Assembly: GCF_041886205.1 (NCBI RefSeq)
Contig: NZ_CP169029.1
Origin: Escherichia coli
Lineage (GTDB): Bacteria; Pseudomonadota; Gammaproteobacteria; Enterobacterales; Enterobacteriaceae
Reading direction: 5' to 3' (one strand)
Length of the DNA: 64,000 bases
The notes under the pieces were generated by a model. That model saw only the letters and a program-made list of their open reading frames with translations. It ran no database searches and was not told the origin of the DNA. The first letter of the stretch is position 1. Each line of letters starts with the position of its first letter. A program made the translations under genes and the position numbers. This document shows, piece by piece, positions 23,179 through 52,975 of this stretch.

Positions 23179-24723
23179 ATGGATGTCATTAAAAAGAAAC
23201 ATTGGTGGCAAAGCGACGCGCTGAAATGGTCAGTGTTAGGTCTGCTCGGCCTGCTGGTGGGTTACCTTGTTGTTTTAATGTACGCACAAGGGGAATACCT
23301 GTTCGCCATTACCACGCTGATATTGAGTTCAGCGGGGCTGTATATTTTCGCCAATCGTAAAGCCTACGCCTGGCGCTATGTTTACCCGGGAATGGCTGGA
23401 ATGGGATTATTCGTCCTCTTCCCTCTGGTCTGCACCATCGCCATTGCCTTCACCAACTACAGCAGCACTAACCAGCTGACTTTTGAACGTGCGCAGGAAG
23501 TGTTGTTAGATCGTTCCTGGCAAGCAGGCAAAACCTATAACTTTGGTCTTTACCCGGCGGGCGATGAGTGGCAACTGGCGCTCAGCGACGGCGAAACCGG
23601 CAAAAATTACCTCTCCGACGCTTTTAAATTTGGCGGCGAGCAAAAACTGCAACTGAAAGAAACGACCGCCCAGCCCGAAGGCGAACGCGCGAATCTGCGC
23701 GTGATTACCCAGAATCGTCAGGCGCTGAGTGACATTACCGCCATTCTGCCGGATGGCAACAAAGTGATGATGAGCTCCCTGCGCCAGTTTTCTGGCACGC
23801 AGCCGCTCTACACACTCGACGGTGACGGCACGTTGACGAATAATCAGAGCGGCGTGAAATATCGTCCGAATAACCAAATTGGCTTTTACCAGTCCATTAC
23901 CGCCGACGGCAACTGGGGTGATGAAAAGCTAAGCCCCGGTTACACCGTGACCACCGGCTGGAAAAACTTTACCCGCGTCTTCACCGACGAAGGCATTCAG
24001 AAACCGTTCCTCGCCATTTTCGTCTGGACCGTGGTGTTTTCACTGATCACCGTCTTTTTAACGGTGGCGGTCGGCATGGTTCTGGCGTGTCTGGTGCAGT
24101 GGGAAGCGTTGCGCGGCAAAGCGGTCTATCGCGTCCTGCTGATTCTGCCCTACGCGGTGCCATCGTTCATTTCAATCTTGATTTTCAAAGGGTTGTTTAA
24201 CCAGAGCTTCGGTGAAATCAACATGATGTTGAGCGCGCTGTTTGGCGTGAAGCCCGCCTGGTTCAGCGATCCGACCACCGCCCGCACGATGCTAATTATC
24301 GTCAATACCTGGCTGGGTTATCCGTACATGATGATCCTCTGCATGGGCTTGCTGAAAGCGATTCCGGACGATTTGTATGAAGCCTCAGCAATGGATGGCG
24401 CAGGTCCGTTCCAGAACTTCTTTAAGATTACGCTGCCGCTGCTGATTAAACCGCTGACGCCGCTGATGATCGCCAGCTTCGCCTTTAACTTTAACAACTT
24501 CGTGCTGATTCAACTGTTAACCAACGGCGGCCCGGATCGTCTTGGCACGACCACGCCAGCCGGTTATACCGACCTGCTTGTTAACTACACCTACCGCATC
24601 GCTTTTGAAGGCGGCGGGGGTCAGGACTTCGGTCTGGCGGCAGCAATTGCCACGCTGATCTTCCTGCTGGTGGGTGCGCTGGCGATAGTGAACCTGAAAG
24701 CCACGCGAATGAAGTTTGATTAA
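23179..24723 (+). CDS. malF: Maltose transporter permease MalF
   Basis: Translation from [17 protein letters not shown]... (514 aa) matches MalF. Confidence 0.95.
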
Positions 24724-24737
24724 GGGAGATAACAAAA

Positions 24738-25628
24738 ATGGCAATGGTCCAACCGAAATCGCAAAAAACACGTTTGTTTATTACTCACCTGCTACTGCTA
24801 CTTTTTATCGCGGCGATTATGTTCCCGCTGCTGATGGTCGTCGCTATCTCACTGCGCCAGGGGAACTTCGCGACTGGCAGCCTGATCCCGGAGCAAATCT
24901 CCTGGGATCACTGGAAACTGGCGTTAGGTTTTAGCGTGGAACAGGCTGATGGTCGCATTACGCCACCGCCATTTCCGGTACTGCTGTGGCTGTGGAACTC
25001 GGTAAAGGTCGCCGGGATTTCCGCGATTGGCATTGTGGCGCTCTCCACCACCTGCGCCTACGCTTTCGCCCGTATGCGCTTTCCAGGCAAAGCGACGCTG
25101 CTGAAAGGAATGCTAATTTTCCAGATGTTCCCGGCAGTACTTTCACTGGTCGCGTTGTATGCGTTGTTTGATCGTCTGGGTGAGTACATTCCATTCATTG
25201 GCCTGAATACTCACGGCGGCGTAATTTTCGCGTATCTGGGTGGGATTGCGCTGCACGTCTGGACCATCAAAGGCTATTTCGAAACCATCGACAGTTCTCT
25301 GGAAGAAGCGGCGGCGCTGGATGGTGCGACACCGTGGCAGGCCTTCCGCCTTGTCTTGTTGCCGCTGTCAGTACCGATTCTGGCGGTGGTGTTCATCCTG
25401 TCGTTTATCGCTGCCATTACTGAAGTTCCGGTCGCGTCGCTGTTACTGCGTGACGTAAATAGCTACACCCTGGCCGTGGGGATGCAGCAATACCTCAACC
25501 CGCAAAACTACCTGTGGGGTGACTTTGCCGCCGCTGCCGTGATGTCTGCATTACCGATCACCATCGTCTTCTTGCTGGCTCAACGCTGGCTGGTCAACGG
25601 CCTGACGGCAGGTGGTGTGAAAGGTTAA
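24738..25628 (+). CDS. malG: Maltose transporter permease MalG
   Basis: 296-aa translation matches MalG. Confidence 0.95.
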
Positions 25629-25724
25629 AGATGTTGTTCTGCCAATGTTATGCCGCTGCACCCTCAACTTACGTTATCCCAACTTGTGACTGTTATTCGG
25701 CGCTCCACGGAGCGCCTTTTTTTC
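25629..25724 (+). ncRNA. malG 3'UTR-derived sRNA (MalH-like) ending at the malG terminator
   Basis: 3'UTR with terminator hairpin ggcgctccacggagcgcc plus T7 at 25699-25723; assignment to MalH rests on recall of the literature. Confidence 0.35.
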
Positions 25725-25999
25725 TTTCGTCTGCAATCTGAATCGTTCGCCGGTTAATATTTCCATCATAGAGCTTATTATTTTTACGTTATTTTTTTTC
25801 CCGCTTACGATAATTCTCTTTCGTGCTCTGAGTCACGGCAATAGTATTGTTTTCATCAATTTTTGATAATTATCACAATTAAGATCACAGAAAAGACATT
25901 ACGTAAACGCATTGTAAAAAATGATAATTGCCTTAACTGACTGACAATTCCAACATCAATGCACTGATAAAAGATCAGAATGGTCTAAGGCAGGTCTGA

Positions 26000-27475
26000 A
26001 TGAATACCCAGTATAATTCCAGTTATATATTTTCGATTACCTTAGTCGCTACATTAGGTGGTTTATTATTTGGCTACGACACCGCCGTTATTTCCGGTAC
26101 TGTTGAGTCACTCAATACCGTCTTTGTTGCTCCACAAAACTTAAGTGAATCCGCTGCCAACTCCCTGTTAGGGTTTTGCGTAGCCAGCGCTCTGATTGGT
26201 TGCATCATCGGCGGTGCCCTCGGTGGTTATTGCAGTAACCGCTTCGGTCGTCGTGATTCACTTAAGATTGCTGCTGTCCTGTTTTTTATTTCTGGTGTAG
26301 GTTCTGCCTGGCCAGAACTTGGTTTTACCGCTATAAACCCGGACAACACAGTGCCTGTTTATCTGGCAGGTTATGTCCCGGAATTTGTTATTTATCGTAT
26401 TATTGGCGGTATTGGCGTTGGTTTAGCCTCAATGCTTTCACCAATGTATATTGCGGAACTTGCTCCTGCTCATATTCGCGGGAAACTGGTTTCATTTAAC
26501 CAGTTTGCAATTATTTTCGGGCAACTTTTAGTTTACTGCGTAAACTATTTTATTGCCCGTTCCGGTGATGCCAGCTGGCTGAATACTGACGGCTGGCGTT
26601 ATATGTTTGCCTCGGAATGTATCCCTGCACTGCTGTTCTTAATGCTGCTGTATACCGTGCCAGAAAGTCCTCGCTGGCTGATGTCACGCGGCAAGCAAGA
26701 ACAGGCGGAAGGTATCCTGCGCAAAATTATGGGCAACACGCTTGCAACTCAGGCAGTACAGGAAATTAAACACTCCCTGGATCATGGCCGCAAAACCGGT
26801 GGTCGTCTGCTGATGTTTGGCGTGGGCGTGATTGTAATCGGCGTTATGCTCTCCATCTTCCAGCAATTTGTCGGCATCAATGTGGTGCTGTACTACGCGC
26901 CGGAAGTGTTCAAAACGCTGGGGGCCAGCACGGATATCGCGCTGTTGCAGACCATTATTGTCGGAGTTATCAACCTCACCTTCACCGTTCTGGCAATTAT
27001 GACGGTGGATAAATTTGGTCGTAAGCCACTGCAAATTATCGGCGCACTCGGAATGGCAATCGGTATGTTTAGCCTCGGTACCGCGTTTTACACTCAGGCA
27101 CCGGGTATTGTGGCGCTACTGTCGATGCTGTTCTATGTTGCTGCCTTTGCCATGTCCTGGGGTCCGGTATGCTGGGTACTGCTGTCGGAAATCTTCCCGA
27201 ATGCTATTCGTGGTAAAGCGCTGGCAATCGCGGTGGCGGCCCAGTGGCTGGCGAACTACTTCGTCTCCTGGACCTTCCCGATGATGGACAAAAACTCCTG
27301 GCTGGTGGCCCATTTCCACAACGGTTTCTCCTACTGGATTTACGGTTGTATGGGCGTTATGGCAGCACTGTTTATGTGGAAATTTGTCCCGGAAACCAAA
27401 GGTAAAACCCTTGAGGAGCTGGAAGCCCTCTGGGAACCGGAAACGAAGAAAACACAACAAACTGCTACGCTGTAA
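26000..27475 (+). CDS. xylE: D-xylose:proton symporter (MFS)
   Basis: 491-aa translation matches XylE. Confidence 0.95.
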   Translation: MNTQYNSSYIFSITLVATLGGLLFGYDTAVISGTVESLNTVFVAPQNLSESAANSLLGFCVASALIGCIIGGALGGYCSNRFGRRDSLKIAAVLFFISGVGSAWPELGFTAINPDNTVPVYLAGYVPEFVIYRIIGGIGVGLASMLSPMYIAELAPAHIRGKLVSFNQFAIIFGQLLVYCVNYFIARSGDASWLNTDGWRYMFASECIPALLFLMLLYTVPESPRWLMSRGKQEQAEGILRKIMGNTLATQAVQEIKHSLDHGRKTGGRLLMFGVGVIVIGVMLSIFQQFVGINVVLYYAPEVFKTLGASTDIALLQTIIVGVINLTFTVLAIMTVDKFGRKPLQIIGALGMAIGMFSLGTAFYTQAPGIVALLSMLFYVAAFAMSWGPVCWVLLSEIFPNAIRGKALAIAVAAQWLANYFVSWTFPMMDKNSWLVAHFHNGFSYWIYGCMGVMAALFMWKFVPETKGKTLEELEALWEPETKKTQQTATL

Positions 27476-27485
27476 TCTTCCTGTC

Positions 27486-27521
27486 CAGCACGCCGCGCCA
27501 GTTCGGCGTGCTGTCTTTTTA
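27486..27521. terminator. Rho-independent terminator between convergent xylE and psiE
   Basis: Hairpin cagcacgccg...cggcgtgctg followed by tcttttt. Confidence 0.65.
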
Positions 27522-32349: not shown

Positions 32350-32736
32350 AACAATTTCCCTTCATTGAATGAATGGAGATTTACCCAAAAACATTTCGGG
32401 CGGGATCGAGTATACACAACTAAAGCATGCGAATTACGGCGCGGGGAATTAGCGATGGTGTTTTAGGATAATTGGAATGAATATCAAATATAAGTTTCAA
32501 CTTATATTTAAATAACAATAAAAATCATAAACTTAAAATAAAAACAAAAGTAATTAATCTGCGTATTCTCCGAAATAAACAACGATTAAAAATCTATTTT
32601 AGGATTAACCTCACGGTATGATTTCCGTTAAATCACAGACAAGGGGATTTATCTGATAAAACAATACCGACTTATTGTCGGCATTGTTTTTAAGGTTATT
32701 TAACTCCTCATACTATGCATTAATGTCGATATTGGC

Positions 32737-34460: not shown

Positions 34461-34719
34461 TAGCAATACTCTTCTGATTTTGAGAATTGTGACTTTGGAA
34501 GATTGTAGCGCCAGTCACAGAAAAATGTGATGGTTTTAGTGCCGTTAGCGTAATGTTGAGTGTAAACCCTTAGCGCAGTGAAGCATTTATTAGCTGAACT
34601 ACTGATCGCCAGGAGTGGATGAAAAATCCGCATGACCCCATCGTTGACAACCGCCCCGCTCACCCTTTATTTATAAATGTACTACCTGCGCTAGCGCAGG
34701 CCAGAAGAGGCGCGTTGCC

Positions 34720-34970
34720 CAAGTAACGGTGTTGGAGGAGCCAGTCCTGTGATAACACCTGAGGGGGTGCATCGCCGAGGTGATTGAACGGCTGGCCACG
34801 TTCATCATCGGCTACAGGGGCTGAATCCCCTGGGTTGTCACCAGAAGCGTTCGCAGTCGGGCGTTTCGCAAGTGGTGGAGCACTTCTGGGTGAAAATAGT
34901 AGCGAAGTATCGCTCTGCGCCCACCCGTCTTCCGCTCTTCCCTTGTGCCAAGGCTGAAAATGGATCCCCT
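34720..34970 (+). promoter_or_regulatory. lysC leader containing the lysine riboswitch (L-box)
   Basis: Long structured 5' leader immediately upstream of lysC, the known position of the E. coli lysine riboswitch; boundaries approximate. Confidence 0.6.
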
Positions 34971-52809: not shown

Positions 52810-52975
52810 TCAGGAGCAGAGAATTGCCGGATGCGGCGTAAACGCCTTATCCAGCCTACGTTCGGCAACGGTTGTAGGCATGATAAGACGCGCAAGCGTC
52901 GCATCAGGCATCGTGCACCGATTGCCGGATGCGGCGTAAATGCCTTATCCGGCCTACAGTCAGCAACGGTTGTTG
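52810..52975. repeat. REP elements in the aceA-aceK intergenic region
   Basis: Several gccggatgcggcgtaaa(c/t)gccttatcc(a/g)gcc units. Confidence 0.8.

What the first reader, a model, noticed from the sequence alone, without database searches (positions are those of the whole stretch)
25629..25724. malG 3'UTR with strong terminator: likely source of the MalH sRNA
A 3'UTR-derived sRNA from malG (MalH) has been described in E. coli. The 3'UTR here ends in a GC-rich hairpin plus T7.
Basis: established knowledge. Interest (0 to 1): 0.2.

Follow-up and report, generated by a model that had tools for sequence, protein, structure and literature searches.

The report
Known MalH small RNA after malG

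Summary
The observation and the interpretation both hold. Window 24738..25628 (+) is malG. About 70 nt after its stop codon lies a perfect 7-bp, 6-GC hairpin (25699..25716, -13.3 kcal/mol) followed by T7 (25717..25723). It is the only site in the 64 kb that meets strict terminator criteria.

RefSeq NC_000913.3 annotates the ncRNA malH (b4807, "small regulatory RNA MalH") at 4242531..4242633. Window 25621..25723 is 100% identical to it over all 103 nt.

MalH begins 8 nt upstream (25621, or a second published 5' end at 25625), inside the malG coding sequence, and ends at 25723.

The published mechanism is: RNase E-type processing of malEFG mRNA, a 5'-monophosphate, Hfq association, pairing with the ompC and ompA 5'UTRs, lower MicA and support of lamB (PMC8081044). 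The sequence fits this. Seed nt 28-46 (25648..25666) pairs with the ompC 5'UTR at about -32 kcal/mol, and 0 of 2000 shuffles did as well. The seed and the terminator are conserved in ten other Enterobacteriaceae, while the spacer between stop codon and seed varies.

MalH is in 5422 of 5426 complete E. coli genomes. Rfam has no MalH family. Vibrio carries the unrelated MicX at the same position. Novelty: already known. Interest: low.

The parts
21835..25628 (+). malE-malF-malG operon, the parent transcript from which MalH is cut (malE 21835..23025, malF 23164..24723 as the longest ORF, malG 24738..25628)
   Evidence: ORFs. NCBIfam equivalogs MalE 776 bits, MalF 981 bits, MalG 610 bits. RefSeq annotation of identical DNA names malG.
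25621..25723 (+). MalH sRNA (b4807), 103 nt. It overlaps the last 5 coding nt and the TAA stop of malG. A second published 5' end corresponds to 25625 (99-nt form).
   Evidence: 100% identical to the annotated malH of NC_000913.3. Coordinates also given in PMC8175672. Described as a 104-nt species in PMC8081044.
25648..25666 (+). Seed region, MalH nt 28-46, TTATGCCGCTGCACCCTCA. It pairs with two segments of the ompC 5'UTR (GCAGTGGCATAA and TGAGGGT) separated by a 10-nt bulge, and with the 5' end of the ompA 5'UTR.
   Evidence: RNAduplex: ompC -31.9 to -32.7 kcal/mol, z -4.75, 0 of 2000 shuffles as good; ompA -29.6 kcal/mol, 2 of 2000. The core CCACTGC..ACCCTCA is conserved in 9-10 of 11 Enterobacteriaceae sequences. 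[quoted passage not shown]
25678..25694 (+). Second conserved block, CCCAACTTGTGACTGTT, just upstream of the terminator. Its role is not shown here; a second pairing region or an Hfq contact is inferred.
   Evidence: Conserved in E. coli, E. albertii, Citrobacter, Enterobacter cloacae and partly in others. The role is inference only.
25699..25716 (+). Rho-independent terminator hairpin shared by malEFG mRNA and MalH
   Evidence: 7 bp, 6 G-C, loop 4. -13.3 kcal/mol. It is the only consensus structure in the cross-genus alignment, and 3 of its 7 pairs show compensatory changes.
25717..25723 (+). U7 tail of the terminator, forming the 3' end of MalH. It is the expected Hfq proximal-face binding site (established knowledge for Hfq-dependent sRNAs; not tested here).
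   Evidence: Sequence. T-run conserved in all 11 sequences.

Best explanation
Window 25621..25723 (+) encodes MalH, earlier called MdoR. It is a known Hfq-associated small RNA derived from an mRNA 3' end. It has no promoter of its own. The MalT- and CRP-dependent malEFG transcript ends at the strong intrinsic terminator at 25699..25723. Endonucleolytic decay of that mRNA, probably by RNase E, leaves the last ~103 nt as a stable fragment with a 5'-monophosphate, protected by the terminator hairpin, the U-tail and Hfq. The single-stranded seed (nt 28-46) pairs with the 5'UTRs of the porin mRNAs ompC and ompA and lowers their level and translation. MalH over-expression also lowers MicA, a repressor of lamB, so that maltoporin synthesis is favoured when the mal regulon is on. 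Shown here: sequence identity, terminator, seed complementarity, conservation of seed and terminator, and an intact parent operon. Taken from the literature for the identical K-12 sequence: processing, 5'-P, Hfq binding, target regulation. Inferred: the exact nuclease site and the role of the second conserved block.
For: The sequence is 103/103 identical to annotated malH b4807, and published coordinates agree. The terminator is unique in the window under strict criteria, and its stem covaries across genera. The whole RNA is not unusually structured (z -0.93), so the seed region is left largely open in the centroid fold. Seed-ompC duplex is -32.7 kcal/mol with 0 of 2000 shuffles as good; seed-ompA is -29.6 kcal/mol with 2 of 2000. 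Seed and terminator are conserved in 10 other Enterobacteriaceae, while the stop-to-seed spacer has indels of many lengths. This is the pattern expected of a trans-acting seed, not of coding sequence. The RNA is present in 5422 of 5426 complete E. coli genomes, at 99% identity or more in 5368. No promoter-like site lies upstream on the + strand within 24500..25620. Experiments in PMC8081044: primer extension, TEX sensitivity, northern blots, pulse over-expression RNA-seq, GFP reporters with compensatory ompC mutations, and a chromosomal seed mutant. Independent RIL-seq and northern support is in PMC8175672, and a Klebsiella orthologue is reported in PMC11347178.
Against: Nothing in the sequence contradicts it. 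There are caveats. The reported physiological effects are modest (about 20% change in lamB, about 30% in MicA in the seed mutant), and the authors themselves call the significance unclear. The 5' end is heterogeneous in published data (25621, 25625, and in Salmonella a site equivalent to about 25631). The published length (104 nt) differs by 1 nt from the annotation (103 nt). The published MalH sequence and the Fig. 1C pairing could not be read as text, so my seed assignment comes from RNAduplex, not from the figure. Expression in this particular strain is not tested.
Confidence: 0.95

Rival explanations
1. It is only the transcription terminator and 3'UTR of malEFG. The ~100-nt fragment is a decay intermediate with no regulatory function of its own.
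For: The hairpin plus U7 is sufficient to explain termination. The reported phenotypes of the seed mutant are small, and the authors call the significance unclear.
Against: A 19-nt single-stranded stretch pairs with the ompC 5'UTR far better than any of 2000 shuffles. That same stretch is the best conserved part of the UTR across genera, while its flanks vary. Published reporter assays with compensatory mutations and CLASH/RIL-seq chimeras support direct pairing.
Confidence: 0.04
2. It is an independently transcribed sRNA with its own promoter inside malG, like Vibrio MicX.
For: MicX occupies the same position after malG in Vibrio and has its own promoter.
Against: No sigma-70-like site lies upstream on the + strand in 24500..25620. 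The published RNA is TEX-sensitive (5'-monophosphate), and its level tracks malEFG. The MicX covariance model does not match the window even at E up to 10.
Confidence: 0.01
3. The region encodes a small protein (ORFs 25631..25741, 36 aa, or 25650..25757, 35 aa).
For: Two ATG-initiated ORFs of 35-36 aa are present on the + strand.
Against: Both ORFs run through the terminator hairpin and U-tract into untranscribed DNA. Across genera the region between stop codon and seed carries indels of many lengths, so no reading frame is kept. Neither ORF is annotated in RefSeq.
Confidence: 0.005

Closest known systems
MalH (synonym MdoR), E. coli K-12 b4807; Iosub et al. 2020/2021, RNA Biol 18:914 (PMC8081044)
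   Same: Identical 103-nt sequence. Same position overlapping the malG stop codon, same terminator, same seed, same parent operon.
   Different: Nothing in the RNA itself. The only differences are in coordinates: the annotation gives 103 nt, the paper 104 nt, and an alternative 99-nt form exists.
MicX sRNA of Vibrio cholerae (Rfam RF01808; Davis & Waldor 2007, PMC1976385)
   Same: It lies at the 3' end of malG (vca0943) and overlaps it. It is processed in an RNase E-dependent way to a form that is largely the 3'UTR, and it represses an outer membrane protein mRNA.
   Different: There is no detectable sequence or structure similarity. RF01808 scores 99-178 bits on five Vibrio loci but gives no hit on the window at E up to 10. 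MicX has its own promoter and is independent of mal induction. Its targets (vc0972, vc0620) differ, and Hfq is not required for its target regulation.
Processed ('type II') 3'UTR-derived Hfq-dependent sRNAs of enterobacteria, such as CpxQ (cpxP), SroC (gltI) and NarS (narK)
   Same: They share the terminator of the parent mRNA, are released by RNase E cleavage, carry a 5'-monophosphate, are bound by Hfq and act in trans through a conserved seed. This is established knowledge; CpxQ served as the control in PMC8081044.
   Different: The parent gene, seed and targets differ. MalH is expressed only transiently, at the transition to stationary phase or on maltose.

Membership tests
MalH sRNA (E. 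coli b4807) | Sequence matches the annotated or published MalH | tested here: met
   103/103 identical to NC_000913.3 4242531..4242633. Coordinates agree with PMC8175672.
MalH sRNA (E. coli b4807) | Lies on the malG strand, overlaps the malG stop codon and ends at the operon's Rho-independent terminator | tested here: met
   malG stop at 25626..25628 and MalH at 25621..25723. Hairpin at 25699..25716 plus T7.
MalH sRNA (E. coli b4807) | Intact malEFG parent operon upstream | tested here: met
   NCBIfam equivalogs MalE, MalF and MalG all score far above their cut-offs.
MalH sRNA (E. coli b4807) | Seed complementary to the ompC and ompA 5'UTRs (long ompC duplex of two stems with a bulge) | tested here: met
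   ompC -32.7 kcal/mol, 12 bp + 7 bp around a 10-nt bulge, 0 of 2000 shuffles as good. ompA -29.6 kcal/mol, 2 of 2000. The targets were taken from K-12, not from this strain.
MalH sRNA (E. coli b4807) | Accumulates as a ~100-nt, 5'-monophosphate, Hfq-bound species on maltose or at the transition phase | not testable with these tools
   Published for the identical K-12 sequence (PMC8081044, PMC7213987).
MicX (Rfam RF01808) | Match to the RF01808 covariance model | tested here: not met
   No MicX hit in window 24000..27000 at E up to 10. Five Vibrio malG-downstream loci score 99-178 bits against a gathering score of 75.
MicX (Rfam RF01808) | Own promoter inside malG, with expression independent of the mal operon | tested here: inconclusive
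   No sigma-70-like site upstream on the + strand, but a consensus scan is a weak test. The literature says MalH is processed and tracks malEFG.
Processed 3'UTR-derived Hfq sRNAs (type II) | Shares its terminator with the parent mRNA, has a U-rich 3' tail of at least 6 U and a conserved single-stranded seed | tested here: met
   Terminator and U7. Seed conserved across genera. Seed unpaired in the centroid fold.
Processed 3'UTR-derived Hfq sRNAs (type II) | 5' end generated by RNase E cleavage | not testable with these tools
   TEX sensitivity and a nearby Salmonella TIER-seq site are reported in PMC8081044.

The most novel reading that the evidence does not exclude
The most novel reading not excluded concerns genome context rather than MalH itself. 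In about a third of E. coli genomes, and in most other Enterobacteriaceae sampled, psiE converges directly on MalH: its stop codon overlaps the last two T of the MalH U-tract, and no U-run follows the hairpin in the psiE direction. psiE read-through would then be antisense to MalH, which could link phosphate starvation to MalH activity. In this window a ~1.8-kb xylE segment (25724..~27516) separates the two genes. It may have uncoupled such crosstalk, or placed xylE under read-through from malEFG. A second minor possibility is that the MalH seed also binds the ompC Shine-Dalgarno/AUG region (ATGTTAT + ACCCTC, -14.1 kcal/mol).
Probability: 0.08. Interest if true: 0.35.

Novelty: already known. 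Interest (0 to 1): 0.08.

Why it matters
For this window it matters little. The element is a characterised and annotated sRNA that is nearly universal in E. coli. Its general interest is already in the literature: an mRNA for a sugar importer yields from its own tail a regulator that trims the general porins (OmpC, OmpA) and indirectly favours the dedicated maltoporin, which ties inner-membrane transport capacity to outer-membrane composition. There are two practical points. Rfam 15 has no MalH family, so automated RNA annotation misses it. PGAP-annotated genomes list only malG under this sequence. The cross-genus alignment made here (A2) could seed such a family.

Tried and rejected
(1) An Rfam search of 24000..27000 at E up to 10 gave only a sub-threshold TarB hit (18.7 bits against a gathering score of 80), driven by the generic terminator. 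I rejected it as a chance match to a terminator.

(2) The supplementary tables and figures of PMC8081044 that hold the oligo and MalH sequences are not held as text. Identity was therefore established through the RefSeq malH annotation and the coordinates in PMC8175672.

(3) RNAduplex with the full-length RNAs gave unrealistically long duplexes with large loops and weak statistics (ompA z -0.73). I replaced it with a 31-nt seed window.

Most of its 120 loci were other ABC permeases ending in LTAGGVKG or distant taxa. About 21 were usable, and Salmonella and Klebsiella pneumoniae were not among them.

(5) The whole-RNA fold z-score (-0.93) shows no unusual global structure. Only the terminator is significant, so I built no structural model.

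(6) I considered and rejected the small-ORF reading.

(7) A quick exact-string comparison of malG with K-12 failed because the first 40 nt differ. I did not pursue it, as it is irrelevant to MalH.

Full report
**Observation.** The + strand ORF 24738..25628 (296 aa) is malG. It matches the NCBIfam equivalog for MalG at 609.8 bits against a cut-off of 261. RefSeq genomes that carry identical DNA annotate malG followed by xylE. malE (21835..23025) and malF (23164..24723) lie upstream, so the malEFG operon is intact.

After the TAA stop (25626..25628) the sequence runs about 70 nt to GGCGCTC-CACG-GAGCGCC (25699..25716), followed by TTTTTTT (25717..25723). The hairpin folds at -13.3 kcal/mol. It is the only site on either strand of the 64-kb window with a perfect stem of at least 7 bp and at least 6 G-C pairs followed within 1 nt by T6. 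None was found in 100 block shuffles. The tool's looser terminator definition is not enriched in this region (4 found against 3.8 expected), so the strength of this particular site is what counts.

**Identity.** The RefSeq record of E. coli K-12 MG1655 (NC_000913.3) annotates an ncRNA, gene malH, locus tag b4807, "small regulatory RNA MalH", at 4242531..4242633 on the malG strand. It overlaps the malG CDS by 8 nt. Window 25621..25723 is identical to it at all 103 positions, and the flanks 25605..25755 are identical as well. Table 2A of PMC8175672 gives the same coordinates (4,242,531 <- 4,242,633, or <- 4,242,629) and credits Iosub et al. 2020.

Its coordinates (25629..25724) should be moved to 25621..25723, or 25625..25723 for the shorter form. 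The 1-nt difference between the paper (104 nt) and the annotation (103 nt) is unresolved and unimportant.

**Mechanism from the literature for the identical K-12 sequence.**
- MalH has a 5'-monophosphate: it is TEX-sensitive, unlike the primary transcript RybB.
- It appears together with a ladder of malG-3'-end fragments, and its level follows malEFG, transiently at OD600 about 1.8 in LB and strongly on maltose.
- A candidate RNase E site lies 4 nt downstream of the primer-extension 5' end in E. coli data, and 10 nt downstream in Salmonella TIER-seq.
- Pulse over-expression lowers ompC, ompA, rseA, MicA and others.
- GFP reporters with compensatory ompC mutations show direct pairing.
- A chromosomal double-seed mutant has about 30% more MicA and about 20% less lamB mRNA on maltose.
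- In the bioRxiv version the RNA was called MdoR.

**What the sequence itself adds.**
- *Fold.* The whole 103-nt RNA is not unusually structured (MFE -22.1 kcal/mol, z -0.93). The terminator is the only strong helix, and the middle of the RNA is open in the centroid structure.
- *ompC pairing.* MalH nt 28-46 (TTATGCCGCTGCACCCTCA, window 25648..25666) pairs with the K-12 ompC 5'UTR. It forms 12 bp with GCAGTGGCATAA (one G-U) and 7 bp with TGAGGGT, separated by a 10-nt bulge in ompC. The site lies roughly 67 to 38 nt upstream of the AUG. The energy is -31.9 to -32.7 kcal/mol, z -4.75, and 0 of 2000 shuffles of the 31-nt seed window did as well. [quoted passage not shown]
- *ompA pairing.* The same region pairs with the extreme 5' end of the ompA 5'UTR at -29.6 kcal/mol (2 of 2000 shuffles as good).
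- *Alternative ompC site.* A weaker site covers the ompC Shine-Dalgarno and AUG at -14.1 kcal/mol. This is my own observation and is untested.

**Conservation.** Within E. coli, MalH is found in 5422 of 5426 complete genomes, at 99% identity or more in 5368. A degenerate pattern for the MalG C-terminus, scanned over one genome per species, returned true malG 3' ends from several groups:
- Enterobacteriaceae: E. albertii, two Citrobacter, Enterobacter cloacae, three other "Enterobacter" species, Superficieibacter, Mangrovibacter and a Klebsiella-labelled isolate.
- Outside that family: Photorhabdus, Vibrio, Aliivibrio, Salinivibrio and Aeromonas.

In the Enterobacteriaceae alignment (A2) three things are conserved:
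- the core GCCACTGCA-ACCCTCAAC (ACCCTCA in 10 of 11 sequences);
- a second block, CCCAACTTGTGACTGTT;
- the terminator and its T-run.

The stretch between stop codon and seed differs in length and sequence, for example an extra small hairpin in Citrobacter and Mangrovibacter. The only consensus structure is the terminator stem, and 3 of its 7 pairs show compensatory changes (GGCGCTC/GAGCGCC versus GGCGGCC/GGCCGCC). This pattern fits a trans-acting seed plus a terminator/Hfq module. It argues against coding potential for the 35-36-aa ORFs that overlap the region.

Most genera have A where E. coli has G at MalH nt 35, which would make the ompC helix fully Watson-Crick. Photorhabdus and Aeromonas have no MalH-like sequence after malG. 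PMC11347178 reports a partially similar MalH orthologue in K. pneumoniae, in the malG-psiE intergenic region, with the same binding site.

**Comparison with known systems.** Rfam 15 has no MalH family. The window gave only a sub-threshold TarB match through the generic terminator, and nothing at the gathering threshold in this region.

In five Vibrio species the DNA immediately after the malG stop codon matches Rfam MicX (RF01808) at 99-178 bits. [quoted passage not shown] However, it has its own promoter, different targets and no detectable similarity to the window. MalH therefore works like MicX in outline but is not a member of that family. Mechanistically it belongs with the processed 3'UTR-derived Hfq sRNAs such as CpxQ, SroC and NarS.

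**Rivals.**
- *Terminator only.* This reading is contradicted by the seed statistics, the seed conservation and the published compensatory-mutation experiments.
- *Independently transcribed sRNA.* This is contradicted by the published TEX sensitivity and by the absence of a promoter-like site upstream (a weak test).
- *Small protein.* This is contradicted by the indel pattern and by the ORFs running through the terminator.

**Verdict.** The finding is real, correctly interpreted and already known. The only correction is to the 5' boundary. Interest is low.

**Seen in passing.**
- The DNA right after the MalH U-tract is polymorphic. 3624 E. coli genomes carry xylE as in this window. 1787 have psiE abutting MalH, with its stop codon overlapping the last two T, as do most other Enterobacteriaceae sampled.
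- One E. coli strain has IS903B inserted inside MalH.

Noticed in passing
window 25724..27516 (xylE segment between the MalH U-tract and the psiE stop codon at 27519): xylE is a presence/absence polymorphism whose left edge is exactly the end of the MalH T-run. 3624 of 5422 E. coli genomes match the window arrangement. 1787 have the E2348/69 arrangement, in which TTTTTTT is followed directly by ACTCCCGC... and the psiE stop codon overlaps the last two T of MalH. E. albertii, Enterobacter cloacae, Citrobacter sp. FP75, Superficieibacter and others also have psiE-like sequence directly after the terminator, so the xylE insertion looks derived. In the psiE direction the hairpin is not followed by a U-run, so psiE read-through antisense to MalH is conceivable in those strains.
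   Followed up: partly
L003 2501..3557 (E. coli strain PCP06102, NZ_CM129874.1): An IS5-like IS903B element sits downstream of malG, and the MalH match breaks after nt 56. This is a natural disruption that separates the seed from the terminator.
   Followed up: no
L089 1172..1364, L024 12293..12484, L052 7202..7402, L071 7947..8131, L017 8405..8582: In five Vibrio species the Rfam MicX sRNA (RF01808, 99-178 bits) starts at the malG stop codon. It is a positional and functional analogue of MalH with no sequence similarity. Three of these loci also carry the malK-II RNA motif (RF03008).
   Followed up: partly
L122 (soil MAG CTSoil_132), reverse strand, first ~150 nt after the malG stop: About 130 nt are inserted between the malG stop codon and a MalH-like seed (GCTGCTGTACCCTCAACTT). 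The insert contains inverted-repeat sequence that I recall as resembling an ERIC/IRU element. This was not tested.
   Followed up: no
window 23089..23159 (-) and 52877..52954 (-): Rfam naRNA4 (REP-element-derived) matches. The first lies in the malE-malF intergenic region, which PMC8081044 cites as the place where malE mRNA is selectively stabilised.
   Followed up: no
window 32546..32695 (+), 34697..34893 (+), 57828..62837 (-): Other Rfam matches at the gathering threshold: STnc430 sRNA, a lysine riboswitch, and a complete rRNA operon (5S, 23S, StyR-44, tRNA, 16S). None is related to the finding.
   Followed up: no
MalH nt 24-46 (window 25644..25666) versus K-12 ompC -14..+3: Besides the strong upstream site, the MalH segments ATGTTAT and ACCCTC can pair with the ompC start codon region and Shine-Dalgarno (GAGGGT..ATAACAT) at -14.1 kcal/mol. 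This could be a secondary, directly translation-blocking site.
   Followed up: partly
window 25621 / 25625 / 25631: The published 5' ends are heterogeneous: primer extension at 25621, a TEX-data site 4 nt downstream, and the Salmonella TIER-seq site 10 nt downstream. The paper's length (104 nt) and the RefSeq annotation (103 nt) differ by 1 nt.
   Followed up: partly
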